A DNA stretch of 64,000 bases, from assembly GCA_023213395.1 (NCBI GenBank), contig CM041465.1, forward strand, positions 164,927,741 through 164,991,740, in the 5' to 3' direction. The stretch comes from Cycas panzhihuaensis (taxonomy: Eukaryota; Plantae; Cycadophyta). Below the pieces are notes generated by a model. The model had not been told where the DNA came from. It worked only from the letters and a program-made list of their open reading frames with translations, and did no database searches. The stretch's first letter is position 1; every line of letters starts with the position of its first letter. Shown here in pieces: positions 1-63,435 of the stretch. Both the position numbers and the translations under genes were made by a program.

Positions 1-1345
1 ATCAATCCTTGCCGATAATAGTTCGTGGAGACATGAGTTGCCCAACAAAAGGTATGGATAATGTTATCCTGGTTTGTGTTGACAAGTTGATAGGAAGAAT
101 TCAATTGGTGACAGGTCATACAGTAATTTGCATGTATTGGAAAATATCCATGATCTTCCTCAACTCAGTTACATTCTCCACTCTCATCTTTGAGAAGACC
201 AAAATTATAACAGCATATCCTAGAACGGCGCTAGGAAGTTGCTGTCAAAGGAACATAAGGAGGATATCATGTCACCAGGATCTTGCTTATCGAAATCATA
301 TTTCCTTTTGGATAAGTTACATGATTATGAAAGTCAATCAGATTGAAATAATGATCCATGTATGTATATCCATAATCAGGAATCATATGCGTGTGAGTAT
401 CATAGAAATACTCATTATACTTAGTTCATGGAATTCCTTGAGCGACACAGAGAAAGCAAGGTACATCACAGTTACAGTGAACTCTACTCAATAAATCCAT
501 TGCTTCAGGGGAGGATAGTGATGATATCTCATTGCTACATTTGGATAACGATGATATTGCTAATATCTATTTTTTTGGTCACTCACCCCCTAAAGAAAAT
601 GGAAGTAAGCAGTGATAGATGTCTTTGATGAGTACATGCAGATCATGTGCAATTAGCCATCATCCACCACTTGTTTAGCATGTCAAAGGATTCTCAACTA
701 TGTATGAAGCTGAAAGAAGCAAAGCTCGAAGATCGTCAGTTCAAAGGACAGATTCAGAAAGGACACTACAAGGTTGAAAACCAAGACCATGCCCAAGACA
801 TGGTGTTCAAAACCTTTCCAAGATCAAGGCGGTGGAGATTCAAAGAAGACAAAGTGCATTAGAGTCTGTTGATAGTCATGTCAGCCTTGTCATGTTGTCT
901 TTAATGTCTATAGTCTCAAATTCATGTCAAGTGTCAATGTATGTCAAATTGTCATTTGTTCAAACATTAAACATTAAGGGGAGGTGTTAGAAATAATGTT
1001 TAATGTGTGTGGGTCCTAGAATGATAAGTGATAGTCCTAAGTCTTAGGGTCAAAAGGTCATTATAATACTATGTAAAAGGATATAAGTTTATTGGTCAAG
1101 TTTGTGGTGTAATGCTATTGGTCAGGACAAAGGTATTTGTCCCACATGCATTACTTGGGATGTATTGTCTCCCACCTCTTTGGTATATAAAGGTGGTTGA
1201 GGTAGTATGTAATCACATCACATCAAGGCTCACCTTGAGTCCTTGGTGCTTTTGGTATATTAATACATTCTGATTATATTGTGTGATTCTCTGGATGTTG
1301 ATATTGTTCTTATAGTTGAATGTTCTCCATGTTAAAATCTCAACA
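1..1345 (+). mobile_element. Element D: 3' part of a non-autonomous Copia-derived LTR element (novel-module ORF, RNase H-like tail, PPT, 3' LTR 985-1345), inserted into the RT of another Copia
   Basis: PPT AACATTAAGGGGAGG abuts TGTTAG...CTCAACA (985-1345). The LTR shares blocks with element B LTRs (TTGTCCCACATGCATTACTT, GTATATAAAGGTGGT.GAGGTAGT, CCATGTTAAAATCT). Copia RT resumes at 1346 ([15 protein letters not shown]). Confidence 0.85.
9..494 (+). CDS. Element D ORF segment: unknown hydrophobic module X, homologous to 56336-56790
   Basis: Manual alignment with the 56195-56995 ORF gives about 71/150 identical residues (GHTVICMYW, IFE..KI.TAY, FW..Y.IMK). Both copies are stop-free. Confidence 0.7.
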   Translation: MPIIVRGDMSCPTKGMDNVILVCVDKLIGRIQLVTGHTVICMYWKISMIFLNSVTFSTLIFEKTKIITAYPRTALGSCCQRNIRRISCHQDLAYRNHISFWISYMIMKVNQIEIMIHVCISIIRNHMRVSIIEILIILSSWNSLSDTEKARYITVTVNSTQ

Positions 1346-6614: not shown

Positions 6615-8339
6615 AATTCATAAACCAAAACAACACTTGGGAATTGGTTTCTCTGCCAAAAGATAAATTTGTTGTAGGTTGCAAATGGGTATATAGAATA
6701 AAAGAAAAGCTAGATGGAAGTATTAAAAAGCATAAAACTCGACTTATAGCAAAAGGATATACTCAGACAACAAACATTGACTATGAAGAAACGTTTGCTC
6801 TTATGGCAAAGGTAATAACTATCCACATAGTTATAGTAATGGCAGCCCAACATGGATGGGAACTTGTGCAATTAGATGTAAAAAGTGCCTTTCTAAATGG
6901 TGATATCAGTGAATAAGTCTATATGGAACAACCACTTGGATATATAAAGAAAGGAGAAGAACAACTGGTCTACAGATTAAAAAAGGCATTGTATGGCCTA
7001 AAACAAGCACCTAGAGCTTGGTATGCTAAATTGGATCATAATCTTTGAAAAATTGGTTTTAATAGATGTGAAGTTGATCCAAGTCTTTACATATAAAAAC
7101 AAAAAGACTTGATCACCATAATTGTGACATATGTAAAATTGTCACAGGCGATAATCAAGAAACCATCAGCTAGGTGAAAACACAAATGAAAAATGACTAA
7201 CATGGATGCACTTCACTATTATCTTGCCATAGGAATTAAACAAGCAGAGAGTGGGATCTTTATCTCACAAACCAAGTATGCCAAGAATCTTTTAAAAAGG
7301 TTCAATATGGAAGAATACAATCCATGGGCTACACCTATGGAAGTAGGTTGTGTTCTAAATGCTAGTGAAGACAAATATTAGGAGGCAAATGAAACTCTCT
7401 TAAAAAAACTAGTTGGAAGTCTCATTTACTTAACAACTGCTAGACCAAACATATCTTTCTCTATTGGAGTCATCTCCAAATTCATGTACAATCCAAAAAC
7501 CATTCATTAGAATCCTGCCAAGAGAATCTTAAGGTATATCAAAGGTACTTTGAATCTTGAACTATGATATGTCAAGGTAAATGAACCATGCTTAATTGGA
7601 TTCACTGACTCTAACTTGGCTTTAGAGTTTCAGGAACAAAAATCCACATTAGGATATTACTTCAATCTTGGAACAACCATGACATCATGGAGTAGCAAGA
7701 AACAACCAACAATAGCCCTGTCCTCAACAGAAATGAAGTATAAAGTTGTAGTAAGTGCAACTTGTGAAGCTGTTTGGCTGAGATAGCTCTTGAATGATTT
7801 AAATCAAGGGTGTCAAAAAACAACTACAATCTATTGTGACAATCAAAGGGTGATCAAACTCACCAAAAATCTTGTCTTCCATGCAAGGACCAAACACAAA
7901 AATTCATCATCACTTCATCAAAGAAAAGGTCCAAAACAAAGAGATTGACTTACAATATTGCAGCAATGATCAACAAGTTACAGATATCTTCACAAAACCA
8001 CTGTTAAAAGATAAATTTTAGTATTTCATGGATCTGTTTGGAATGAAGAACAAAAGATAAAACATTAAGGGAGGGTGTTAGAATATTAATATTTTATCCT
8101 AAACTTTGTACTATAACATTCTTTATGTAAGTCGAGGGTTAGGTGTCATTGTCCCTCTTTTGTCTTAAGTCGACACTTGTTACATAAATTGACACTTGTC
8201 ATTCATATATAAATCAGTTATGTAAATTTGTTGTATATAAGAGAGATTACCCTCTCTCATCAATCAATGAAGAAAGATTCATTTTCATCATTTTTGGCTT
8301 GTTATCAAACATAGATGGGTACATAGAAATAACAAGGAA

Positions 8340-10053
8340 AGACTTCAAGAGAGTTCTGTGGAAAAATATAACTCTTGTATTACACTCCAAGGATATAAAC
8401 ATGGTTGGCTAGAAATACCTTACTCTTATAATCTTATGAGTTATGATTTCAGTTGCAAAATGGCCTTCACACAAGCCTTCATGGAATTCATCAAGTATCA
8501 ATGTTGCCTCTTCCTTTTTTAAGCATTTTAAAAGAATATCATCATATCCTTTCCTATACAAATGTCCTTCAATCAAGGCATATGGTTTAGATTTTAATTT
8601 TAAGGATGGCCTTCCCCTTTTGTTTAGGGACTTGGGCAAAAGCCATTCTTGAGGTAGAAGATTATATTTTACAAGAAAAGGTTGAATTCAATAGAATCAT
8701 CAACTCCTTATGCCAAAGTTAAATCACTTGCTTCATATTTTGTTTTTCCTATTCCTCTCCAACTTGCATAAGTTTCTCTATTTCACTTTCTAAAAATTAA
8801 TCGACAAAGACCTTGTCCCTTCATCATCTTGGTTGGTTTGACCTCTAGATCAAATTCTTGGATTTTGGCCAACCATTTAACCCATCTTCTTGTTGGCTCT
8901 ACTTCTTTTAGCATCATTTTAACTAGGGATTGGAATATGTAGGCCATGGTATGATTATGAATAATATAAGGCTTAAAGTCTTCAATTGCTTTCATCAGAG
9001 CGCATGCTTGATTTTCTGTAGTGCTATACCTCAACTAATAATCTTTAAGAGATCTTCTTAGAAATGACACCAATCTTTCTTTTCCTTCATCATCTTTCTG
9101 AACTAGCATAGCAACATAAGCACCTTCTAAGACATATGAATATATAATAAATTCTCTTTCAAAATTAGGGCTCACTAATGTAAGAACCCTAGCAATCCAA
9201 TCCTTGATTTGATGGAAGGCTTCTTTAGCCTCATTGGTCCATTTGAAGTTGACATCCTTGCATAGCAAGCCATTGATGAGCAAGGGTATCCTCACAAAAT
9301 CAAGAATGAATCTCCTCAAAAGGTTTATCCTTGTAAAAAAAGATTGAACCCCTTTTTTATTAGTTGGTAAGGACAAGTTCTTGATAGCTCTAATTGTATC
9401 TAAGTCAACATATGTTCATTTTTTGTCACTATGTGCCCTAAAAATTTTCCAACAATAACTCCAGGTACTATCTTCTTAGGATTTAGTGAAATCCTGTATT
9501 GCCATCATCTTTTGAATACTAACCTCAAATGTTCTATGTGACTTGCTCTTTTCTTGGAGAATACAATCATATCATCTAGATATATCACAATTATCACTTC
9601 AATCAAATCCTTGAAAGCATAGTCCATAGCTCTTTGAAATGTGACTCCTACATTAATCAATCCAAAGGGCATTTTTTCGTTTGCAAATGTCCCCAAGACT
9701 ATCATGAATGTTGTTTTATGCCTATCTTCTTCAACTACTGAAATTTGATTGTAGCTTGAAAAACCGTCTAATAAATACATAAATTCTAAGCCTATGACAA
9801 CATGAAGAATTTGTTCCATCCTTGGCAATGGATAGTTGTCCTTTATAGAGTCTTTATTTAAATTCCTAAAATCAACATAGAGCCAGATATTCGCATTCTT
9901 TTTCTACACAGGTACTAAGCTAGCTACCCATGTTGAAAATCTAACTAGAAAGATGATTCTTGCATCTCTAAGCTTTTGAAGTTCATTCCATATCAAATTT
10001 TAGATTTAGGGTTCATGACACTTCATTTTTATCTAAGAGGCTTTACTCTTGAT
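8340..10053 (-). mobile_element. Degenerate Gypsy (Tat/Athila-like) pol fragment: RT, RNase H, start of integrase
   Basis: LDGFSSYNQI, MPFGLINVGVTFQRAM, YLDD, YSTTENQ..AL..AI and LDEFHEGLCEGHF motifs. Confidence 0.85.
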
Positions 10054-44719: not shown

Positions 44720-47700
44720 TGTTAATGTGGCAGTTAATTATTAAGCCACTTAGTTAATATTAATGTGGTTTAATTAAGTGAAAAGGTGCGAAGCCAAAAG
44801 GTGTGACTTATTCAGAGGGTCACAACCCTAATTGAGTGACAGGCCTTGTGCATTCAACATCTAAAGATCATTGTATCAATCCATTGTGCAATAATCTAAG
44901 ATATCCATCAAGGATCCTTTTGTGGTGGGTTTTTTCTCGAAAGGGTTTTTCTACATAAATCCTATGTACTGTGCATCTGTTTTCTGTGTGTATATTTGTT
45001 TGCTTGCTGTGTATGGTAAAAGATTTTGCAGTTGGGAACATTTGTGTATGATTTCATGTTCCCGAACATGGTATTAGAGCCGTAGGGTCCTACACAGCTA
45101 AGGCCTGGCGTTGAGCAGAGCGGTGTGATCGTTGGTTGCCGGGTAACGCTGTCTAACCCAATACGAGTCTTGAGGGTCCATCAACCCCAACAACGTACAG
45201 AATCAGGCACAGTGTATTGGTGGAGGTTAAAGCAGTGAAGATCACTATTCAACAAAACATAAGGGTTATTGGAGTCAATATTCAGGTGTAAAGTCCACAT
45301 TTGTAGTCAGAGTTGGCTCGTCGAGGGCCATCCGAAGCCGATTGAAGGTCTGTTGCAAAGATTGATGCTTGTACAGCACGCATTGATGGTGATTCAGCGA
45401 CTTTAAGGACAACCAAGCGTGTAGGTTCATTATATTCCTCATCAAAATACCATAAAAATCGATAAAAAAGGGGTAATTTTTGGTACTGCTTGCTATCAAA
45501 CCTTCGTGCAAGCACCAGTGGACATGATTGAAGCCCGAATTGGCAGTTTTCTATCTAAATATAAGTGTTGGGTTGAAATTTACAGCAGTAAAAGGCTATT
45601 TTTATTGAATTTTCTCCATATTTATGAGGATTTTGGAGACTAGTGTACACATATTGAGCCTAGAAACAACCATATTGAGGTTGGCCAGGTACTTATTAAC
45701 ATACTTGGGCGAGTTTGAGTAGTCACTGGGTTGTGTTTGTGTTGTTCTGGCTCTCTTAAGTGTTGGTTGGGCGGAATTCAAGTTGGTTAGGCACTATTTA
45801 AGGTGATTGGGCGCTAATTACGTTGATTGGGCATATAAAAACTGTGGCTGGGTGTCTATCTTTGTTGGCTAGGTTGTCCAATGCATGGCTGGGCTGTGTG
45901 CGAGTCTCTAACCAGCCGTACAAAGTCAATTGAAGGTCTAGTTTCTACACGCAGTCCATGTATACTCAGCAGCAGCCGCACCTTCATATTTCTCCACGTG
46001 AAGAGTAGGAGATATCATAAGTGAAGATATTTGGAGTGTTTTTGGTCCGTTCTGAGCACGAATCGAGGGGATTTTTTGTGTTTTTGACTTGGTGACCATG
46101 CACTATAGCGGTGTGGATCCGTCCTTGGTTTTGGCGCACATGTTTTTTAGCCTTTGTTAGTGTCAATTGTGACATTTAATGGCTATTTAAGGTCGCTTGT
46201 TGACGGTTGAGAAGGCATAAACAGTCGATGGCTCACTTAACGTGGGTATAGTAGGTGTTGGGTGCCTTTGGAAGCGTGCTCGTGAGGCAGAGGAAGACAC
46301 AGGGGTCCAATTTTGTCCTGCATACGTTCGTTTTGGTGTTGTTAACCCATATTGAAGCCTGTTTCTCGAGATGGAGTGCATTATGCCCAAAGTTATCTTC
46401 AATGGTAACAATTTCAGCGAGTGGAAGGCCAATATGGAACTTATTCTGATGGTGAATCAACTATGGGGAATCACCAAGGCAAAAGTGGACGCGATTCCAT
46501 TAGACCATAAGGAGCGTATTCATCTCAAATAGAAGCAATTTATAGCCGTGGGACTGTTGAAACTGTCACTGGCGCCGGACCACAGAGCGTTGGTTCACAA
46601 TCTAGACGAACCAGCTGAGATATGGAAAAAACTGTGTGATACATTTGAAAAGAAGCAAACAAACAAACGTCTGGCACTGATGTTGGAATTACTCAACTCG
46701 TGTGTGGAGGATGAGAACATCAACTCCTACCTTAACAAGATTACTAACTTGAAGAATAAGCTAAAGAAACTAAAGCCAAACTCGATCGATGATGCATTGC
46801 TATTCACAATAATCATGTTGAAATTGCCGGCTGCCTTTGCCACATTCCAGACCATTTATGGTAGAGATGAAGTGATAGAAGTAGAGACGTTTGATGGGTT
46901 TAAAAACCTGGTTCTAGTAGAGAATGCCAAGCTCAAACATCATGGTATGCTTGGAGGTTCTGGTTCAAGTTAGGCCCTAGCCATGAAAACTCAGAGGAAA
47001 GAGGCCACTAAGGAGAAGATCACACAGAGGTCAGGAGAAAGTTCTCAAGACAAAAGGAAGTTCAAAGGGAAATGCAATTACTGCAAGAAGGATGGTCACC
47101 GCGAGAAGAACTATTGGTTCAAGCGTCGTAACAAGCACAAAATCAACCAGGATGATAAAGGGAAGAACATTGCTGCTCACTGTATCTGAGCAAAAGCCTT
47201 ATCAGTCGAATCCGATCAGAGAGATTATTGGGTGCTTGACTCTGGAGTGCAGAAGCATATTTCTTACTAGAGGCGGAACTTTGATACGATGACTTCAAAT
47301 CAAAGTGGTGCTCAGATTGTCCTTGGTAATGCTCACGTCTTGCCGGTAGAAGGTATCGGTGAAGTTTCCATTGTAGGACGTAAATTTACCGGAGTATATT
47401 ATGTACCAAAGATGCAGTTGAACCTTCTTTCAGCCCAGGAGATCTGCAAACAAAGTATGAAGGTAGAGCTCTATGATGACAAATGGCTGATTAAGGATTC
47501 GAAATAGAACTTTGTTGTCATAGCTACTGGGAAAGTCCAGAACAACTTCTAGGTGTTTGAAATGTTTCAGTCTTAGAAGAAGTCTTACACCTTTGTTGCC
47601 AGTGCGAATGACGTAAGTTGTGGTACAACCACCTCGGTCACCGTAATTATAGGAGTATTGCACTATTGAAGACGTTGAAGATGGTGGAAGGATTGTCATC

Positions 47701-50800: not shown

Positions 50801-51495
50801 AGGATTTAAAAGAAAATGTGGAGAATGAAAGTGGTTAAAGGTTGGAAATCCTCAAATCAAATAATGGGGGAAAATACATCTCAAAAGAATTTATGCAATA
50901 TTATAAAGACCACAAAATCAACAAACAATTGACTACAATATACACACCTCAGCAAAATGGAGTTGTGGAGAAGATGAATGAGACTTTGGTAGAAAAAGCC
51001 AAGACCATGATGAAAGGTAAAAATCTCCCATAATCATTTTAAGCAGAAGCTACATATACAACTTATCTGACAAATCAAAATTCCACAAATGTTGTCTGTG
51101 TTGAAATATTCAAAGGAGATCATTCAAGATTCAAGAAAAATGAAACAAAATTCATGGACATAATATGATAGCATTAACTCATAATGAAAGTGATTACATC
51201 ACAATGTCTCCACAACAATAATATCATAATGGATTACATATTGACTCAATGCGAACTACTCTACCTCAACCACTTATTTATATATCATAAGGGAGAGAGA
51301 GTAGTAAGACTTGTGTTACATGTGGGACAAATGACCTCCAATACAACTAATGACATATAACTTACTTATTGACCAATAACCTAATGACCACTTACTTGCA
51401 CAAATATGCATTACATACTTAGACATTAACACATTAAACATTATCTTCCAACACCTTCCCATAATGTTTAATGTCAAGACAATAAAAATTGAATT

Positions 51496-52608
51496 CTAAG
51501 ACACCATGACACTAAGTATTGTGGACTGACTAAAACTGACATATGACTCCACATGAAGCATCGTTTTGAATTTACAATGCTTTGATCTTGGAATGGTCTT
51601 GAAGACAATATCTTCACTTTGATCTTCATCTTGATTCCTACAACATTGTCCTTGAGGTAGTCTTTTGGGGTGATGGTCCTTGAGATTAACTTTCTTTATC
51701 TTCATGTGCAAGAATGAATCCTTTGTCATGTGAAATGTGTAGTAGATCCTAGTCAAATCAACTCGAGCTTGGTGTAGACCTATCAAGAGATCCTGTATGT
51801 ACTCATCAAAAACATCTTGGAATTTGAGGTGTATATCAAGTATGTCTTCAGTCACCGGTTCAGTCATCACTTGCTTGTCTTCATTTTCTTCAACATATGA
51901 GTGATCAACATCTATTGAACCAATGTCAAAATTTAAAGATATGTCAACAAAAGAAGAACCAATATCACTTGAAATATGAGTATCAACATCTTGTATGTGT
52001 TTCTCCTCTTGATTAGTACTTTCAATAATAATTCCTTCAACTTTTAGTAGAAAATCTTCATGAACTTGTGAGCAATTTGGATTAGAACCAATAATCGAAT
52101 CAAGAATTGACTCGATAACATTTTCAAAAGAACAAACAGATTTGACTTCATCCTCCCTTGAAGCAATAGATTCATTTAGGGAAATTTTTATTACATGATT
52201 ATCTTCATTAGTGGCCAAATCATCAACCTCATTGTGCTTACCAATCTCAACAACACATTCAAGAGTAGTTTCATCACCTTTATTGGTAATCTTTTCAATT
52301 TCTTGACATACCTATACATTTGCATCACCTATATTGTCTTTATCATCTTTCTTATCTATATTGTAGTCATCAACAACTCTGTTTGCTATTTGGTTATTTT
52401 TCTTAAAACTTTCCTCCTCTTCTTCATTAATCAATGCAATACCATCAAGAATAACTTCCCATAACCCTTTAGCACTAAATATGCATTCCATTTTAATTTC
52501 CTAAAAACGAAAATTTGTCCCCATATACTTGGGTAAAGGGAAAGGATAATCTGTCAACCAATATTCATTTCTTTCAGGCAAAAAAACTATGACGTCACTC
52601 AACTCCAT
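51496..52608 (-). pseudogene. Element A single ORF (370 codons, 2 premature stops, no frameshift): gag N-terminus, acidic module, RNase H-like tail
   Basis: MELSDVIVFLPERNEYW...NFRF*EIKMECIFSAKGLWEVI; acidic middle; C-terminal TRIYYTFHMTKD...EDQSEDIVFKTIPRSK. Confidence 0.8.
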
Positions 52609-54454
52609 GATGTTTGAATGAGCTAATCAAAAGTACATTATGCCGGATTCATGCACCCTCTTCTACCTAAAAAAAATTTGTCAAATCAGTAGAAAAATAC
52701 CTCAAATCACATACTAAAACGTCCATCTTTGAAATACGGTTCCAACACCTTAGACAATTTAGAAAATGGATTCTTGGACGGAGAGATATAAAGCAAAATG
52801 TGCAAGAACCCCTTTTGAAGAACAATTTCAAGTTAATAGAAGATTAGTCCCTATAATAAATTAGAAACTGGTCATACTAAGCCTTCATATGACCACTAGC
52901 TTAACGACAAGGGAGCTAGCAGATTTCAACCTGAATTCCAATCCAATTTAATTCAGTTCAACTTTGCAAAAATAATTAAATTCGCCCTAGTGGACTTGAA
53001 GTCCATGGATTCCAAACTGAGTTTCAATTTAATTAAATTAATCTTATAATTTCAAAAAATAATTCCCCTTTTGCATCGAATTGCAGAAGATTCGTAAACC
53101 ATATTAGCCGAGGAAGAATTGCAGTACCGAGATATGTGGGTCTGTGCATTTCCAAAGTTTCCTGATTCCATCACGGAAATCTCCGATGTCTCTGTTGGAG
53201 TCGCAAAGCAATGATACGCAGCGTGGAATTTTACAAAGAGAGGAAGACGTTGGGGTTGACGAAACCATGGTTGGTCGTCATTTCCATGGACTGCATTACT
53301 TCATCCCACGTCTCGTGTTCGATCTGTGATCTGTCATTGACCCATGGTCTATTTCAAGAGGTTTGCAACGAAGGCTACTGATGTTAGAATATAATGTTTA
53401 ATGTATATGTGTCTAAGTGTCTTAAAGTCAATAGTCACAGTCTTAAGTATTAAGGTGTAGGAGTCATACCTTATAATAATATTGTGTGGAAAGTTAGAAG
53501 GTCATTAGTTGGTAAAATGTCATTGGTTAAGTTAAAGGTAATTGTCCCACATGCATTACTTCTCTTATGTGTCCTCCCACCTATTTTGTATATAAAGGTG
53601 GTCGAGGTAGTGTATAGAAACAAGTCATCATTGGGATTCTTGTTGAGTCTATGGTGCATTAATGTTCTGATATAATCTGTTTGTGTTATGTTAATACAAG
53701 CATTGCTTTGTTCATTGATATTGTTGGAGTTGAATGCATTCCATGTTAAAATCTAATATGGTATCAGAGCAGGCCATCCTGCAGTAAGAAGAAGATTGAG
53801 AGAGAAGAAGCCCAGTAAAGGACAAAGTGTTTAAGCAAGGAGGTGGCTCCATCAAGTCAGTTACCAGATCTGGAGATCAAATTAAAAGAGAAGGTTCAAG
53901 GCCCTATGTGCCAGACAATATCACTTCTTTATTGTGTTATCATTTATCTTGGAGATTGAGGCCAGCATGTATGGGAAAGCAATGACATTAAAGTTGTTTT
54001 TAAGAATTGATATTCGAGGTTGTTCATTGGATCAATGTTTTTTATAACACATCCATGGAAATCCACCTACCTGTGTTTGTTAGTTGATTTAGGGTTTGGT
54101 GAAACCCTAGCTTTCCACTAGTCCTAAGTAAATATTGGGATGAAAAAGGTAAATACTCCTTTACCTTTTATGACCATTAAGGCGAAAGAATTGTTGTTGC
54201 CTAGGCTTGCTATGAGGAGGTTTTGTTTGTGAGCTGCCCAGATTACTCCATCTAAGCATCTCTCCTTCTTAGCTAATAGAGGATTTAGACGCTCCATTAT
54301 TAACAAAGGTCTGTCCAGTGTGCCAAGCTTCATTTCTAGACCCACATTACAGTCACCAATAATATAAGGCTCGGGTTGAGTAAAAGTAGATCGCAAACTG
54401 TGGTGCAGAGAAACCTTGGATCAAGTTGTCTACTGTTGAAGACATTTACTCAGG

Positions 54455-54612
54455 TACTATCAACCATCATGCCATTTGGAGCAATTACCTTGGCTTTGTA
54501 AGTCGATGCAGGAGGGCCCACATTGGTGACAATTCTTATGAAGAACGTCAAGAGTTTGGAAGATTTGGTCTAATCAAAAACTACAAAGAATGAAGGATAA
54601 TTGAGTTTTCCT
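54455..54612 (-). pseudogene. Captured subtilisin-like protease (SBT1-type) C-terminal Fn3 fragment
   Basis: Reverse complement translates KLNYPSFFVVFD*TKSSKLLTFFIRIVTNVGPPASTYKAKVIAPNG, matching the LNYPSF...RTVTNVG subtilase motifs. Confidence 0.85.
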
Positions 54613-55150
54613 AGATGTCCTCTAGAAGTAGGGTACTTGACAGGCTTATGTGCAATAATAAGAATGACTTGTATGGATTCTACAATTTGGGCAGTGCTCC
54701 GTTTCTGTAGGCACTGTTAATTCCACTGAAGAAGCTCATCTCCTTTCCCTGGTTTGTTTGAGTGGAACATTCGATTCATATATACTTTCTCAAGGTCCAT
54801 TCAAGTCCTATTCTGATTCTGTATACTGTTCGTATGTTGACGTTTGGAGCGTTTCCAACATTCACTTGCCCTTCACCAGCATTCAGCTTGTCATCTAAGC
54901 ATTCACTTGACCAGCATACAACTTGTCGTCTGGGGTTGATATTTGAAGGAGGTTCTACTGGAATGGCTGGATTGCTAGCCCTCACATATATAGTTGTTGT
55001 TATTGTCGAAATCATGTTTCCCATCATGATGATGTAATTTCCAAAGACTTCGAGGATAAGGAGAGTCTGATTATTAAGGACAGTTGTATCCACGTCATCC
55101 CCTTCCTTGATGTTTTTATTGTTCAAGTTGAGCACAAGTTCAATCCATTA

Positions 55151-55350
55151 ATGAACAGATCACATAACTGAAGCTTTATGTAGACAATTTGGAGAAGGAA
55201 AGAGATTTCTACCTTACTAAACTTTGGGATATTGAAATTCTTTGCCAGGACCCGGAATTGGAACATCTTCCAGTGACAATAGCTGTTCAAGAAATTTTGT
55301 ATGCTGCAGATAATAATAATTCTGTACTTGTTGAAACTCAAGCCATAGTT
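55151..55350 (+). pseudogene. EB1: Captured EB1 (microtubule end-binding protein) C-terminal fragment
   Basis: [52 protein letters not shown] matches the EB1 LEKERDFYFxKLRDIEILCQ motif. Confidence 0.92.
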
Positions 55351-55831
55351 AGCAGAGCTTCATTAGCAGGCATTTCTAGCAAACTATTATAACTTGATGA
55401 TTTTGCAGTGTCTCTTCAGTAGCAGTTATAGTGAGATCTGTCCTACTAGTATACAGTTTTTCAACCTCCAGATTTCTTGCAGCATGATATATTTTGTCTG
55501 TTCCATGTGAAGTGGAAGCATCTAACATGACTACTTCTGATGTATGAGCCTCTGAGATGATTTGTGATGTATTATGGGAGCTCTTGGTGTCTCACATAAT
55601 CTATCACTCTCAACAATAGTGTGGCCTATATTAACTGCCTCATGAGAAGATGTTTTGTTTCCATCCCCTGTGACTTCAGATTTGTCTAAGGTAAGCAAAG
55701 AAGATTTTGACCAAAATTTGATCGATAGCAAGGGAACAAGGACAAATTATTTAGTAGAGATATTTGGCTTATCATAGCTATGAAGACATAAATTTTGGGG
55801 AATGTTCTTTTGCTCATCTTAACCACACAAT

Positions 55832-57259
55832 ATGGAGTTAAGTGAGGTCATTACCTTTGTGCCAGAAAAGAATGAACATTGAGTAATAGACACCAACATA
55901 GTTTTGCCTAAATATGTTCGAGTCAATTTTCGAATTTGGAAAATTCAAATGGAATGTGTTTTTAGAATAAAAGGATTATGGAACATTGTTCTTAGAAGAG
56001 TTTTAATTAATGAAGAAGGGGAGGTAACCTTTAAAAAGAAAATTAGGGTAGTCGTTGATGCAATGGCTGCAGCTTTCAACAAGGAGAACCTTCATCCTTC
56101 ATACCACTTCCTTGTCTAAACTCTTCAAAATATTGACTCAGCTGAAGACGCCTGGAATCTGCTAGTAGAAGTATATGAAAAGGGTCCTGAAGAAGTGCAA
56201 AAGAGTATCAGAAGTATAAGGAACCAAAGGAAGAAGCTGAAGAGGAAAGCCAAAAATCAGCTTGATTTTGGAAAGCCCACATCTGGGGTTGTTGGAAGAG
56301 TGAAAGTTGAAGAACCTAAACCCCAACTCTTACAAGTAATTCTTCATGGAGACACATGCACCCTAACAGAAGATATGAGCAACATTGTCCTAGTTTATGT
56401 TGACAGATTGGTAGCCAGGATTCAAATGATGTCAGGACATACAGTGATATGCATGTATTGGAGACTATTTATAATTCCTCTCAACTTAGTCACATCTTCT
56501 ATTTTCATCTTTGAAAGAATCAAAATTGTGACAGCATATTCTACAGCAACTCTAAAAAGTTCCTTTAAAGAAAAAAAGAACATAGGCAAAATACTATATG
56601 ATCAAAATCTTGTCAATCAAGGTCATCGTATGTTTTGGGTAGGTTACTTAATCATGAAGTTCAATCATGTCAAAATAATGTTCCATCCTTGTATAACCTT
56701 AATCAGGAAATGTGTGCATGTAATCATTATAGAAATCCCCATCATACATGGTACAAAGAATTTTTTGGATAATATGGAGAAAATAAGACATCTTGCTAGT
56801 TTTGCACACGCATCTGAACAAGTAAAGTTAGGAAAAGGATCACTGACACTCCTTTCCTTTCAACGGGGTGATCATTGGCTCAAGAAGTCAATCATCCTAG
56901 CAGACTTGACGACAAATAAGGAGGAATCTACTCGCTTCATGGAATCGAAATCACATGTAATCATATTTGATCCAGGAAGACCACGCCTTCACTAGGAACA
57001 CACAGGAAGATTCGTCAAACAGGAAACAGGAAGTAACATAGCAGACAAGACATACAAGTTTTACAGCATTTTAGTTGAAGACAAGGCTTATGACATCATC
57101 TTCAGAAAAATTCCAAGACTTAGGAAATGGAAATTCAAACAACACTTCAAAGTCAAGTCCTATGTCAGTTTGTGTTAGTTTTGTCAGTCCTTAGCACTAG
57201 GTGCCATGTTGTCCTCAGTTTTTGTAGTCTCAACATTAAACATTAAGGGGAGGTGTTAG
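55832..57259 (+). pseudogene. Element B single ORF (476 codons, 4 internal stops, no frameshift): gag N-terminus, module X, RNase H-like tail
   Basis: MELSEVITFVPEKNEH*..NFRIWKIQMECVFRIKGLWNIV..SAEDAWNLL; module X; EDKAYDIIFRKIPRLRKWKFK; ends LNIKGRC* across the PPT/LTR junction, like Copia pol. Confidence 0.82.
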
Positions 57260-58260
57260 AATATAATGTTTAATGTATATGTGTCTAAGTGTCTTAGAGT
57301 CAATAGTCATAGTCCTAAGTATTAAGGTCTAGGAATCATACCTTATAATAATATTGTGTAGAAAGTTAGAAGGTCATTAGTTGATAAAGTGTCATTGGTT
57401 AAGTTAAAGGCAATTGTCCCACATGCATTACTTCTCTTGTATGTCCTCCCACCTATTTTGTATATAAAGGTGGTCGAGGTAGTGCATAGAAACAAGTCAT
57501 CATTGGGAGTCTTGTTGAGTCTATGGTGCATTAATGTTCTGATATAATCTGTTTGTGTTATGTTAATGCAAACATTGCTGTGTTCATTGATATTGTTGGA
57601 GTTGCTTTCCATGTTAAAATCTAACAACAGAGTGGCGGCCATCGAAGAGTCTTTGGTTTTCTACGGAGGAAAGAAGTTGACGTCATTGAGAGGTTCTGAT
57701 ATGGATTTAGATTCAAGCATCTTCAGATCTTAGCGTGCACAAGAATACTAGAATAGGAGGAGGAAAGAACTTCTCTCTTCATTGATTTCTTGAAGAAATG
57801 ACTTACGTATTTATACAATCTTGAGTTGGTTATATGTAGGACACATGCGTGTTCCATATAGGACGTGTCACCTATGTACCTAATTACTAATTAGGTTCCT
57901 TAAGTATCTTTAAAATGATACTTAAAGAGTATTAAGACTAAGATTACATATGACTATGCATAAATACTTATCATTTCCTCCCTGCTTAAGAAGAAATTGG
58001 CCCCAATTTCTACTAAAGATGGAGACATATTCTTGGATAGTTGCTTCAAAGTCTTTTTGATGCTTGGTTCGCCGTTGTCGTAAATGGTGTTTGTTGAACT
58101 GGAAAATCTAGAATGGTATAAAGATGAGCAACAAGTACATCAAAGGTAAGGTGGCCCAAATCACTTGAGTTGACTGTTGCGACCAGCTTGAAAAGAAAGC
58201 TGTGAAGTGAAGTTGATGTTGAATTTGTCGTGAGCATCCTGTCATGATTTGTTTATACAG

Positions 58261-58665
58261 GGTATGCCTGCCTATGGAGAGGGCTCATGGCAATATGCCC
58301 ATAAAAGAAAACTATAGAGTATGCCTGCCTAAGGAGAGGGCTTATGGCAATATATCCGTTGTACAAGAATTGCATAGGGTTTGTCTGCCTAATGAAAGGG
58401 CCTATGACAAAAATGGTATGAGGTATGTCTGCCTAGTGAGAGGGCTTATGACAAGTATGGGGTATGTCTGCCTAATGAGAGGGCTTATGGCAATATGCCC
58501 CAAATTAATGCTGAAGGGGATATATCCTTGACTACCAATGAAGGAGTGTAAGGGACATGTCTGCCTAGAGAGAGGGCTTATGACAATATTCCCGTAGTAA
58601 AATAAATACATCTACCAATGTTTGAGACATGCCTGCCTAGAGAGAGGTCTTATGGCAATGTGCTT
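58261..58665. repeat. Array of 7 copies of a ~35-bp motif with variable spacers in the 3' region of element C
   Basis: GYATGYCTGCCTANNGAGAGGGCTTATGRCAA at ~58261, 58319, 58378, 58422, 58461, 58554 and 58626. Confidence 0.9.
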
Positions 58666-58896
58666 TAGAAGGTAGTCTGAAGATATATCAGAGGTTCTTT
58701 GTTGAAGGCGGTGATATTGTTGTGTCGTGGTCATGCTTGTTGTTGGATTGCATGTATTTGCAAATGTTAACTTTCAGTATGCTAGGATCATGCCGCAGAT
58801 GTAGGAGCAACAGTTGATGTACCTAAGGCTAAGAAACTAGCAACCGCTCATACAACACTTGCTATGAAGCAAGTAATGGTCCGAAATGACTTCTTT

Positions 58897-59301
58897 GTTG
58901 TGTGAAGGTCTTTGCTTGGTCCCTGAGGATCCATGGTAATATAGAGCTAGGAGAACATGTGGCGTAACACTTTCTTGAGTTAGATTCAAAAAGTGTTGCA
59001 TGTTACGCATCGGTGTCAAACATATATGCACGGTCGAGGCGTAATAATGTACAAAAGGTGCAAGAATGAAAGTCAGGAAGGTGAAATAGAATCCATGATG
59101 CAGTTGGACTGACGTCAATAACAAGGTGTATACCTTCCTCGTAGGACAAATCACACCCACAAACACATAAAATCTATGTAGAGTTGAAGAGATTGTCCTG
59201 GCAAATGAAGGAAGCAGGGTATGTACCCAACACAAACCTAGTGTTGCATGATCTGGAGGAGGAGCAAAAGGAACATATGATTTTCCACCATTGTGAGAAG
59301 A
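58897..59301 (+). pseudogene. Captured PLS-class PPR E/E+/DYW-start fragment, antisense to element C
   Basis: V*RSLLG..RIHGNIELGEHVA, SNIYA, CSWTDVNNKVYTFLVG.KSHPQ..IY.ELKRL..QMKEAGYVPNT..VLHDLEEEQKE...HCEK. Confidence 0.92.
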
Positions 59302-60120
59302 TCCAGAAGGACAACCTCATAGTCAGATATCGTCTCCTCTTGTCATGGATTTCCATCTCTACTCATTTTTTGGAGGTACGTAACCAAAGATTCCCGCAAT
59401 ATCAATGCTGACATGGGTTTCTGGCGCTTATCGGATCGTCGGGGCCAAAATCAACCACCCTTAGCTCAAAGTCTTGGTCAAGGAGAATATTGTTGGCCTT
59501 CATGTCTTTGTGAATAATGTGAGGGATGGAGTTGTAGTGTAAGAACGCCAATGCCTAAGCGGCACCCTGTGCAATTCTAAAACGTTTTGGCCAGTCCACG
59601 ACTTCTAGTACATCGGCTCTGTTGCACAGCCACTGGTCTAAGCTTCATAACTCAGTAACTTTTCTTCACCAAAGGAACCTGTAGATTCATTTTCCCTAGA
59701 GTTTCCATCTCTGAAAATTTCTCTGTTTCCCTACACGTGGAACTGCCCAAGTTTCTTCACTGCAACGACTCTTCCGTCGGGTAGGACCACCTTGTATCTG
59801 CTCAATCCCCATCCCCAATGATGTTCGTTTTACAGAAACTGTTGGTGGCCTTGAGAATGTCAGCCAACGTGAGGCGTAAAAGAGGTCTCTGGAATGTGGC
59901 CATATTGATGCTCAGGGGCTCTTTGATACTGCTTCCCACCATTAATTCAAACCGATTGTTGCCAGTATTATTGCTACATTTTTCTGAAATTTTGGAGAAA
60001 TAATCTCACCTAGCCACCTTCCATCACATCAAAAAAATGATGAGCGCAAAAAAACATCTATGTGCTTCCAACCAAAATAGTGAGAAGGGTCCCCAAGTTG
60101 AGGAAGATAATCCTTCAGTA
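59300..60120 (-). pseudogene. EMS1: Captured EMS1/EXS-like LRR receptor kinase fragment (TM, juxtamembrane, kinase up to ~subdomain IX) with microdeletions
   Basis: [105 protein letters not shown]. Confidence 0.85.
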
Positions 60121-60169
60121 ATCCTCCCCACTACGCAATGAACTGGTTGTGGAGGAAATATTGTTGTAG

Positions 60170-60302
60170 TCGTTGAGGCGATTGTTTGACAGACTGAGAA
60201 ATTCCAGCTTCACATTACAGAGCGCCCATGGGATCTCTCCTGTGAGATGATTCTCAGAAAGATCGAGGAAGGATAAGATAGAGAGATTGGTCAGTCCCTC
60301 TT
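60170..60302 (-). pseudogene. Captured LRR fragment of a receptor-like kinase (possibly HAESA-like)
   Basis: GLTNLSILSFLDLSENHLTGEIPWALCNVKLEFLSLSNNRL fits the plant extracellular LRR consensus. Confidence 0.75.
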
Positions 60303-61609
60303 TAACTTAAATTCCACGATCGGAGGAACATAAGAGGTGCAGTACTCCTTAGTGTAAGGATCGTCTTTGGTATAATATTCCAGCGTCATTGGTGCATTCT
60401 CAGCTTCATCCTCGTCAAAGATGGTGTAAGATTGAAATTTAGAGATGCTACATTTCTCTTCATCCCCTTCGTTGGGAACCCTATATATCCTTATGTAGGG
60501 CTCCTAGTGCTAGCACTCGAACTGATAACCGGGCCCGTACTCAGACTCATCTTCGCACGTCTCTTTAGTTGTGTAGCCGACCAAGAACATTCTGTTCATG
60601 AATGTTTGGCTTAGTTCTAGGGGTAGGCCGGAGGACTTGACCATAGAGGGCTCTTCTTTTGCATTTAGGAACCGAAAGACCTCCTGATAATATGTGTCAT
60701 GGTGCCATTGTCTTCCTCGCATTCAAAATCAAGTAGCAGTGTGCTTCTGTATCACTCCCACAAAGCATCGATGGATAAAAGACACTCTAAAACTGCACTG
60801 AGAAAACACGTTCCTTCACGATTCCTTATGCCTTTTACAGTATAATAGTATTTAGGTCCGTGAGCAGATGGACCCTTTAACCACCCGGGCGCCTGTAAGG
60901 CTTCAAGTTTGGCCCTTAATAGGGCTTGACTTGTGTAGAAATAATTCTCATAGAAATCGGCTAGCCTAGAGGACTTAAATCTACATCATCGAACGCTAAA
61001 TTATCCTCACTGGAGGCCTCGCCTTTTTTCTTTATCCAAATTTAAATTTAAAAAATTCGGCAAAGTTCTGCGAAAAGAACATCATATTTTCTTTACTCTC
61101 TTCTTTTGCAATCCCTCAAGCACTTCTCCACGGGCTCTATGCACTTGCAAAACAGATCCATGTTCAGCTCCTCAAACTACGTACAAGTTATCATGGAATA
61201 GAAGAAGAAAAATTTTTAGCAAAAGTTAAGGAGTGAATGAAGAGAGAGAAAAATATTAATGCTAAGATCCTTAGAGACCGACTAGGCTATGATACCAATT
61301 GATCTGGATTTAGATTCAAGCATCTTCAGATCTTAGAGTGCACAAGAATACTAGAATAGGAGGAGGAAAGAACTTCTCTCTTCATTGATTTCTTAAAGAA
61401 ATGACTTACGTATTTATACAATCTTAAGTTGGTTATATGTAGGACACATGCGTGTTCCATGTAGGACATGTGTCACCTGTGTACCTAATTACTAATTAGG
61501 TTCCTTAAGTATCTTTAAAATGATACTTAAAGAGTATTAAGACTAAGATTACATATGACTATACATAAATACTTATCAGGCTCTTGCTGGAAACAAGGAG
61601 AGATTCAAA

Positions 61610-61840
61610 CGCAAAATTGGTAGTGGCTCCTTGGGCGTTGAAGCTGATTATAATGTCCTTGTGATGGACTTACTGGAACTGAGTCTTGAAGATCTCTTTA
61701 ACTTCTGCAGTCAAAAATTTTCCCTAAAGACCATTCTCATGCTTACAGATCAGATGATAAACAGGGTTGAGTATTTGCATTCAAAGAGCTTTCTTCATAG
61801 GGACATCAAACCTGATAATTTTCTAACGGGTCTTGGTAGG
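61610..61840 (+). pseudogene. CK1: Captured, intronless casein kinase 1 fragment, antisense to element A
   Basis: RKIGSGS(L)[69 protein letters not shown]. Confidence 0.93.
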
Positions 61841-63435
61841 TGGAACAGACCGAATATATACTCAAAATGTACCAATTAAATGGAAGAACGGATCTCAACG
61901 TGGTTAAATCGACACGAACCCCCTCCTCTTATTATAGGATTAACAAACAACAAATTCAGGATTTCTGCTTTACAAAGGTGCAGGTTTCCAGTCCCAACCT
62001 TACGCAACCTATCCTCTTAAGAGCCTCCACATGACCTCTACAGGTTTCATAGTCTATGATGGGCTCTTTACACAACTGTTTTTTTTTGTCATTGAGTAAA
62101 CGATGGGCAAATTTCCTTTCTTTATGAGCAGATAATATCGTGTGGCAAAATTTTTCAGAAATAATTCACTCCAATTCCAATAATATTTCCAATACAAATC
62201 CTAACAAGAATTTGTGGGAACAAAAACAACACCTCAACTAGAATTTTAGATTCATGGAAATAATTTCAGGTTATCACCAATCAATTAATTTTTATAGAGT
62301 AAACCCTGTCACACAACTTTCTATCCGAAGCAAAGCAAAGAAACAATGTTACCCAATGAAAGATCTGCATTGTATCAACCACGGTCACGACTATCATAAC
62401 TTGCAACAACAATGGCCTTGAAGTTTCACCCTCTACAAACATAACCACAAACTGGCAAACGGCTCTATGAAGCGACCTCCACAGTTATCAATAACTTGGT
62501 GAACCTGCACAACAATGAACTTGACAAGCAACCTACTTTGATACCATGTTGAAATATTCAAAGGAGATCATTCAAGATTCAAGAACAATGAAACAAAATT
62601 CATGGACATAATATGATAGCATTAACTCATAATGAAAGTGATTACATCACAATGTCTTCACAACAATAATATCATAATGGACTCCATCTTGACTCACTGT
62701 GAATTACTCTACCTCAACCACTTATTTATACATCATAAGGGAGAGAGTAGTAAGACTTGTGTTACATGTGGGACAAATAACCTCCAATACAACCAATGAC
62801 ATATAACCTATTTATTGACCAATAACCTAATGACCACTTAATTGCACAAATGTGCATTACATACTTAGACACTTACACATTAAACATTATCTTCCAATAG
62901 TTTGGAACATAACACCAGAGGAAACCTAATCAAGTGGAAAGCCTACAATGAGCCATCTGAATATCTTTGGGTGCATTGCATACATGCACATTCCAAAGGA
63001 TAAAAGACAAAATTTTGATGATAAAAGTTCCAAGGGTATTTTGGTCAAGTATAGTGAAGAAGGCAAAGCATACTAGGTATTCAAGTTGAAAACCAAAATG
63101 TTTCATACGACTCGAGACGCCGTCTTTGAAGAAGGTAATAAGGAAACAAAGTTGGGCTCTTTATAGATGTGGTAGGACAAAGGGGAGCATATCAAGGAGA
63201 AACTAGTGTCAAGTTCTTCAAGGGAAGTTGTCATGCTAGAAACTTAGCCAAAGCCAACCAATACGTTGACTGAAGCTAATGATGAGAAGGAGTATGAAGA
63301 TGTTCAGCTTGAAGAATAGCAGCCTATGGTTGAAGTACTAGTAAAAAAACTACCAAAATGATGTTTGGAGACCATCATTAAGGCTTAGTTACCTGAGACT
63401 GAAGGAAAAGGAAAGTCGAAGATGAGACCTTATTC

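What the first reader, a model, noticed from the sequence alone, without database searches (positions are those of the whole stretch)
9..494. Unknown ~150-aa module X apparently under purifying selection in two diverged elements
Seen: 9-494 and 56336-56790 are only ~47% identical as protein (hand count), yet both are stop-free in the element-sense frame. They differ by an in-frame 6-nt indel and show many synonymous (AAT/AAC, GGT/GGA, GTA/GTG, GAG/GAA) and conservative (K/R, I/V, L/M) changes. The codon-aligned antisense frame has several stops but reads D/E/Y-rich (..FYD.H.H.IPDYGYT.M.HYF..). Inference: a host coding fragment may have been captured in antisense and then exapted in the opposite frame as a new domain of the Gag fusion. 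No known TE domain was recognised.
Basis: partly seen in the sequence, partly recalled or inferred. Interest (0 to 1): 0.8.

Follow-up and report, generated by a model that had tools for sequence, protein, structure and literature searches.

The report
Open-frame filler in Gag-stub retrotransposons
Two related, pol-less plant retrotransposons share a stretch whose amino acids change about as freely as non-coding DNA but which has no stop codons or frameshifts, so it is likely a spacer kept translatable behind a short Gag piece rather than a new conserved protein domain.

Summary
The homology is real: 3-494 and 56324-56818 are 44-47% identical as protein, both stop-free, with one 6-nt indel. 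The claim of purifying selection on a domain is not supported. DNA identity (70%) equals that of the two elements' LTRs (71%); differences fall 47/42/48 on the three codon positions; dN/dS is 0.73-0.93 (not different from 1), 0.59-0.70 after masking sites that vary within the families, against 0.05-0.07 for the Gag start and at most 0.16 for pol controls. What does look selected is openness: 0 stops against 3-5 expected, and no frameshifting indel against 7 in the LTRs. X lies in a single frame that runs from a truncated copia Gag start to the 3' LTR of a multi-copy non-autonomous element; a third element in the window has the same ends but an unrelated acidic middle. No host, Pfam, PDB or antisense match was found. 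Best reading: an exchangeable spacer that keeps a Gag-stub fusion translatable, working in cis for the element's own RNA (inferred, untested). Mild constraint (dN/dS about 0.6) is not excluded.

The parts
3..494 (+). Module X, copy in element A (163 codons, open at window edge, stop 492-494)
495..984 (+). Element A tail: similar to the tail of element C (39% over 71 aa at 632-844), with the basic motif near 773-847; this copy changes frame near 466-478, 611 and 640, where other family copies differ in length; PPT just before 985
985..1345 (+). 3' LTR of element A (TG...CA); 71% identical to B's LTR, 8 gaps
53382..53758 (+). 5' LTR of element B; preceded by ACTGA (3' side ACAGA, 4/5 target-site match); 95% identical to the 3' LTR
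53759..53770 (+). Primer-binding site TGGTATCAGAGC (initiator-Met type, name recalled)
53771..55831 (+). About 2 kb leader of B with 41 ATGs; holds a host EB1 C-terminal motif fragment in sense at about 55189-55305
   Evidence: (PF03271 E 7.6e-14)
55832..56200 (+). Truncated copia Gag start (DUF4219-like motif plus first helices of Retrotran_gag_2); stops at 55880 and 56117 in this copy; dN/dS 0.05-0.07 against element C
56201..56323 (+). Lys/Arg-rich linker (NQ.KKLKRKAK also in P0003, P0004)
56324..56818 (+). Module X, copy in element B (165 codons, stop-free, in frame with the Gag start)
56819..57259 (+). B tail in the same frame: stops at 56993 and 57176 in this copy, basic motif at about 57068-57142, frame ends NIKGRC* with the stop inside the first LTR bases; PPT at about 57245-57253
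57254..57626 (+). 3' LTR of element B
51452..52608 (-). Element C ORF: same Gag start and related tail, but an unrelated D/E/N-rich middle where A and B have X; 370 codons, 2 internal stops, no frameshift
51099..51451 (-). 3' LTR of element C (5' LTR at 62547-62897, 95% identical); B and a further element are nested inside C

Best explanation
X is the variable middle of one long reading frame in pol-less copia-type LTR elements, where it is likely kept free of stops and frameshifts so that ribosomes would run from a short conserved Gag start to the 3' LTR, while its amino acids drift almost freely. Shown: the element anatomy, the single frame, near-neutral dN/dS in X, strong constraint on the Gag start, a deficit of stops and frameshifts, and an unrelated middle in sister element C. 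Inferred: the RNA is translated; the benefit is in cis (the Gag stub marks its own RNA for packaging by an autonomous helper, and a stop codon close to the 3' end spares the RNA from nonsense-mediated decay, as it does for the parental gag-pol frame, which also ends at the PPT). The origin of X is unknown; its codons are A-rich at position 1 and T-rich at position 2, which halves the chance of a stop and fits an inverted hydrophilic coding piece, but no donor was found.
For: dN/dS of X 0.73-0.93, LRT P 0.22-0.78, kappa 7-8; codon-position differences 47/42/48; degenerate 21/71 vs zero-fold 39/145, whereas RT gives 51/102 vs 15/120; no constrained block stands out in six 25-codon windows. X DNA identity 70% vs LTR 71%. 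Gag start B-C dN/dS 0.05-0.07, P<=7e-6; 9 of 9 pol control pairs <=0.16. Stops 0 vs 3.1-4.6 expected, P 0.005-0.025 in six permutation nulls. Indels 1 in 450 nt (in frame) vs 8 in 352 nt of LTR, 7 frameshifting; P 0.008 and 0.003. B keeps one frame for 475 codons and C for 370 with no frameshift; both stay in register with the NI(K/M)GRC end at the LTR, like the pol end at about 2600. 3 of B's 4 internal stops sit on rows where most laid depth reads another letter in 4 of 4 runs (the fourth is not among the 40 of 532 rows shown, and P0002 has a residue there). In 13 of 15 possible X protein pairs, 48-74% of differences are one transition apart, vs 32-53% in 6 pol pairs. Precedents: non-autonomous mouse IAP 1-delta-1 makes a Gag-Pol fusion that helps in cis (PMC6466679, PMC7411935, passages); copia Gag RNAs with long stop-rich 3' UTRs are proposed NMD targets (PMC5580714, passages).
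Against: Only one DNA pair could be tested; masked dN/dS is 0.59-0.70 with lower bounds 0.35-0.4, so mild constraint remains possible. The stop test is open to ascertainment (the pair was picked for being stop-free), its two directions are not independent, and P0001-P0004 are ORFs by construction. The Gag ATG lies 2,075 nt behind the LTR with 41 upstream ATGs, so translation needs splicing or an internal start, and such a leader could itself trigger decay. No RNA evidence was obtained. In family A minority 7- and 10-nt deletions occur at 906-910, in the last codons before the LTR, and 1 of 3 listed contigs spanning 466-478 has the window copy's length. The basic tail motif shows no significant constraint in three pairings. 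The Gag-start constraint could predate the loss of pol.
Confidence: 0.55

Rival explanations
1. X is a real but loosely constrained protein domain (for instance a membrane-associating or oligomerising part of the Gag fusion) under composition-level selection, with dN/dS about 0.6 blurred by decay after insertion.
For: Masked dN/dS 0.59-0.70; six diverged sequences align with very few indels; strong three-base periodicity (P 5e-4 and 8e-4); hydropathy peaks >=1.6 near alignment columns 176-179 in 3 of 5 and 252-258 in 3 of 4 covering sequences; B's listed private sites are 14 of 15 non-synonymous, so decay does inflate the raw value.
Against: Intervals include 1; zero-fold sites change as often as degenerate ones; B's LTR pair (95%) implies only a few percent decay since insertion, too little to hide pol-like constraint; replacements follow transitions, not chemistry; copy A has no hydropathy peak >=1.6; element C thrives with an unrelated acidic middle.
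Confidence: 0.22
2. X is a relic of an additional ORF (env-like or other 3' aORF) of a lost autonomous parent, joined to gag by a deletion, now under no selection at all; the open frame survives through stop-poor codon make-up and ascertainment.
For: Sense aORFs between pol and the 3' LTR are common and of unknown origin (PMC7264820, part 1 of 3); X's position-specific composition lowers expected stops from about 12 to about 6; near-neutral dN/dS.
Against: Even with codon position held fixed, 3.1-3.2 stops are expected and 0 seen (P 0.02-0.025); no frameshift in X vs 7 in the LTRs over the same divergence; the Gag start is strongly constrained; autonomous copia copies in the window end pol at the PPT with no room for an aORF and none contains X.
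Confidence: 0.13
3. One reading: a host coding fragment was captured in antisense and then exapted as a new functional domain of the Gag fusion.
For: Antisense frame is hydrophilic with T-ending codons (complement of the A-rich first position); sister elements carry host pieces, including a kinase fragment in antisense in C's leader; TE capture of exons is very common in conifers (PMC13477047, passages).
Against: No donor: 0 hits; no similarity to C's middle or B's leader on either strand; exaptation as a domain needs constraint, which is not seen. Capture as origin is compatible with the best explanation and is not what this rival is scored on.
Confidence: 0.1

Closest known systems
TR-GAG elements (Chaparro et al. 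2015, PMC4350172; parts 2-3 of 6 read)
   Same: Non-autonomous LTR element with LTRs, PBS, PPT, 5-bp target site, one long ORF starting with copia Gag, no pol, multi-copy.
   Different: TR-GAG1 carries a recognisable UBN2 capsid and zinc finger; here only about 70-120 residues of Gag remain (Retrotran_gag_2 E 0.085), followed by an exchangeable, near-neutral middle; B is 4.2 kb and has a 2 kb leader with host gene pieces.
Mouse IAP 1-delta-1 (described in PMC6466679 and PMC7411935, passages; the primary paper, Saito et al. 2008, was not held)
   Same: Non-autonomous LTR element whose deletion leaves one in-frame Gag fusion said to help retrotransposition in cis.
   Different: Different superfamily and kingdom; its fusion partner is pol-derived, X is of unknown origin; the cis effect was tested there and is only inferred here.
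Modular non-autonomous LTR families of sugar beet (PMC13570524, passages)
   Same: Families share regional modules and reshuffle them; Gag remnants retained; often no traceable autonomous parent.
   Different: The passages seen do not describe a frame kept open through an unconstrained module.
Sense additional ORFs / env-like ORFs of plant LTR elements (PMC7264820, part 1 of 3)
   Same: Unknown-origin sense coding sequence upstream of the 3' LTR, with some hydrophobic stretches.
   Different: Those follow pol as separate ORFs; X is fused to a Gag stub in a pol-less element and is not conserved like element proteins.

Membership tests
TR-GAG | LTRs, PBS, PPT and 5-bp target-site duplication | tested here: met
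   B: LTRs 95% identical, PBS 53759-53770, PPT before 57254, ACTGA/ACAGA 4/5
TR-GAG | No protease, integrase, RT or RNase H | tested here: met
   No pol family in B's long frame or in three + frames of 54100-55400; no tblastx match of B to the window's pol copies beyond gag. Minus frames of the leader were only read by eye and by one ORF scan.
TR-GAG | Gag capsid domain (UBN2/Retrotrans_gag, E<1e-5) | tested here: not met
   DUF4219 E 1.1e-5, 25.5 bits (cut-off 27); Retrotran_gag_2 E 0.085 over 75 of 172 positions
TR-GAG | Length under 4 kb (1-6 kb in the paper's automated search) | tested here: inconclusive
   B spans 53382-57626, 4,245 bp
TR-GAG | Two or more copies | tested here: met
   7,464-8,369 contigs laid on B and 1,257-1,745 on A per run, 4 of 4 runs each, most 80-99% alike; contig counts are not copy numbers
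Ty1/copia superfamily (non-autonomous derivative) | RT phylogeny and INT-before-RT order | not testable with these tools
   No pol present; assignment rests on the DUF4219-like Gag start, weak match to a copia gag at 46365-46652 (E 1e-4) and a PPT like that of copia copies at 2596 and 8066
Conserved protein domain under purifying selection | dN/dS significantly below 1; third-position excess | tested here: not met
Env-like sense aORF | Separate ORF between pol and 3' LTR | tested here: not met
   Fused to Gag start, no pol
Env-like sense aORF | Transmembrane segments | tested here: inconclusive
   Kyte-Doolittle 19-residue maxima 1.45-1.95; copy A 1.56
Cis-acting Gag fusion (IAP 1-delta-1-like) | Translation of the fusion raises the element's own transposition | not testable with these tools
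   No RNA or ribosome data

The most novel reading that the evidence does not exclude
A large class of pol-less copia parasites in giant plant genomes is selected for translatability as such: a short conserved Gag stub plus any stop-free filler, swapped between families, read to the 3' LTR so that each RNA escapes decay and is licensed in cis for packaging. Such fillers would be nurseries of long de novo ORFs that look like domains but carry no sequence constraint.
Probability: 0.3. Interest if true: 0.65.

Novelty: new variant of a known kind. Interest (0 to 1): 0.33.

Why it matters
It separates two things usually read as one: selection for an open frame and selection on the protein. If it holds across copies, it explains why some non-autonomous LTR families keep long ORFs without recognisable domains, gives a plant parallel to the cis-acting Gag fusion of mouse IAP elements, and warns that 45% protein identity with 'conservative' changes in methylated repeats is what neutral transition-rich drift gives. 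As a new conserved domain, the finding does not stand.

Tried and rejected
No genome is held for this window, so copies could not be collected. Viral contigs: 2 pattern matches, 0 confirmed; metagenomes: 66 matches, 0 confirmed; a degenerate DNA pattern gave 2 loci, both unrelated bacterial-looking genes. Pfam: nothing above noise for X in sense or 6 antisense translations (one E 0.03 hit below cut-off). PDB: 1 hit at E 0.71, 0 for antisense. ESM Atlas best scores 0.79 and 0.75, chance level. AlphaFold2 mean pLDDT 41.6 and 33.3 with 6 and 3 sequences, and the two models disagree (helical vs beta): uninformative, so no fold search was run. No RNA holder listed among 22 runs: no evidence either way. 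Selection on another frame: none of 6 frames differs from 1 (lowest P 0.077). Family variants shown in X make 0 stops in 41 rows (26 of A's 40 shown of 130; 15 of B's 40 shown of 532), but only about 1 is expected, so this has no power. X as inverted copy of C's acidic middle or of B's leader: scores within shuffles. Earlier findings: none. Literature searches listed no paper on this family or on open-frame-only selection in plant non-autonomous elements; the library lacks most subscription papers, and no supplements were read.

Full report
Observation. The window is repeat-rich plant DNA at 33-44% GC, full of decayed copia pol pieces. The frame at 3-494 and the frame at 56324-56818 are homologous: 73 of 165 residues identical, about 70% at DNA level with one 6-nt gap. 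Both are stop-free on the + strand; the codon-aligned minus frame has 4 and 10 stops in 150 codons.

Anatomy. The second copy lies in element B (53382-57626): LTRs 95% alike, a 4/5 target-site match, PBS and PPT. One frame starts at ATG 55832 with a copia Gag start (DUF4219 E 1.1e-5, faint Retrotran_gag_2), runs through a Lys-rich linker, X and a tail with a basic motif, and ends NIKGRC* with the stop in the first bases of the 3' LTR, 475 codons without a frameshift. It holds 4 internal stops; 3 of them sit on rows where most laid depth in 4 of 4 public runs reads another letter (40 of 532 rows shown), so they look private to this copy. There is no pol. The first copy belongs to element A, of which the window holds only X, a tail and the 3' LTR (985-1345). 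This copy changes frame near 466-478, 611 and 640, and family contigs differ from it in length at those same places. A third element, C (minus strand, LTRs 62547-62897 and 51099-51451, with B nested inside it), has the same Gag start as B and a tail most like A's, but an unrelated D/E/N-rich middle, again in one frame of 370 codons with 2 stops. X is shared by A and B, the tail by A and C, the Gag start by B and C: the middle is an exchangeable module. Both A and B are multi-copy families (thousands of diverged contigs laid per run), and 207 of 403 variable places in run X1 are C>T or G>A, the signature expected from methylated repeats (general knowledge).

Is X under purifying selection? Not detectably. 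Differences by codon position are 47/42/48 over 150 codons; a pairwise codon model gives dN/dS 0.73-0.93 with kappa 7-8 and no rejection of neutrality (interval 0.5-1.2 or 0.6-1.6). Degenerate and zero-fold sites differ equally (21/71, 39/145), unlike an RT control (51/102, 15/120). The same model gives 0.05-0.07 for the Gag start of B versus C and at most 0.16 in 9 of 9 pol pairs from the window (overlapping, not independent). X is no more conserved as DNA than the LTRs of the same two elements (70% vs 71%). Synonymous and conservative changes match a permutation null. Across the two copies and four unnamed homologues, replacements follow single transitions more than chemistry (13 pairs vs 6 pol pairs). 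Masking 36 codons that vary within the families lowers dN/dS to 0.59-0.70, intervals 0.35-1.0 and 0.4-1.2, so mild constraint is possible but pol-like constraint is excluded.

Is the frame kept open? Probably. The permutation nulls expect 3.1-4.6 stops and 0 are seen (P 0.005-0.025), and X has one in-frame gap in 450 nt where the LTRs have 8 gaps in 352 nt, 7 of them frameshifting (P 0.008 and 0.003). Caveats: the pair was chosen for being open, and X's codon make-up (A at position 1, T at position 2) already halves the stop rate.

Mechanism. The pattern, constraint on the Gag stub, openness through the middle, stop at the LTR as in the parental pol, is best explained by selection on translation of the element's own RNA. 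Two inferred benefits: the Gag stub acts in cis to bring its RNA into particles made by an autonomous helper, as reported for the Gag-Pol fusion of mouse IAP 1-delta-1 (secondary passages only), and a late stop avoids the long stop-rich 3' UTR proposed to expose copia Gag RNAs to nonsense-mediated decay. Against this: the ATG lies behind 2,075 nt with 41 ATGs, so splicing or an internal start must be assumed, and no RNA data were obtained. I put this reading at 0.55, a loosely constrained domain at 0.22, an unselected relic at 0.13 and exapted antisense capture at 0.10.

Origin. Unknown. No match for either strand in the protein collections, Pfam, PDB or the Atlas. Antisense capture remains a fair guess, since B's leader holds an EB1 fragment in sense and C's a protein-kinase fragment in antisense, and exon capture by TEs is frequent in conifers; that this host is a gymnosperm is my impression, not tested.

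Comparison and verdict. The elements work like TR-GAGs but fail the capsid-domain criterion, and resemble the modular non-autonomous families of beet. I file this as a new variant of a known kind. The headline of a new conserved domain does not hold; the open-frame filler reading is modestly interesting and directly testable with an assembly. Interest 0.33.

Noticed in passing
window 55189-55305 (+): EB1 C-terminal motif (PF03271, E 7.6e-14) with flanking EB1-like sequence inside the leader of element B, in sense; whether all family copies carry it was not checked.
   Followed up: partly
window 61571-61828 (+): Protein-kinase fragment (Pkinase E 1.6e-9; looks like casein kinase I by recall) in the leader of minus-strand element C, so captured in antisense; reads without interruption over 86 codons.
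   Followed up: partly
window 57697-61578: A further LTR element (279-bp LTRs, 96.8% alike) nested in C, carrying a PPR E/E+/DYW fragment (+, about 58930-59305) and an LRR receptor-kinase fragment (-, about 59400-60290): two host genes in one element.
   Followed up: partly
window 58255-58620: Short degenerate tandem-like repeats (about 45-50 bp, 'TGCCTGCCTA..GAGAGGGCTTATGGCAAT') inside that element.
   Followed up: no
window 773-847, 57068-57142, 51562-51636 (-), and P0002: Basic motif D.(I/V)F(R/K).(I/F)P(R/K)...(W/C)(R/K)FK about 100-140 nt before the 3' LTR in all three elements; no family match; constraint borderline.
   Followed up: partly
window 56216-56257; P0003, P0004: Lys/Arg-rich NQ.KKLKRKAK stretch shared by three diverged relatives just before X; resembles a nuclear or nucleolar signal (recalled), and is part of the only confidently modelled helix.
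   Followed up: no
window 51099-62897: Two non-autonomous elements (B and the 57697-61578 element) inserted within about 70 bp of each other inside C's leader.
   Followed up: no
window 56324-56818: 10 of the 15 listed family-variable sites in B's X fall on codon position 2, which is unexplained.
   Followed up: no
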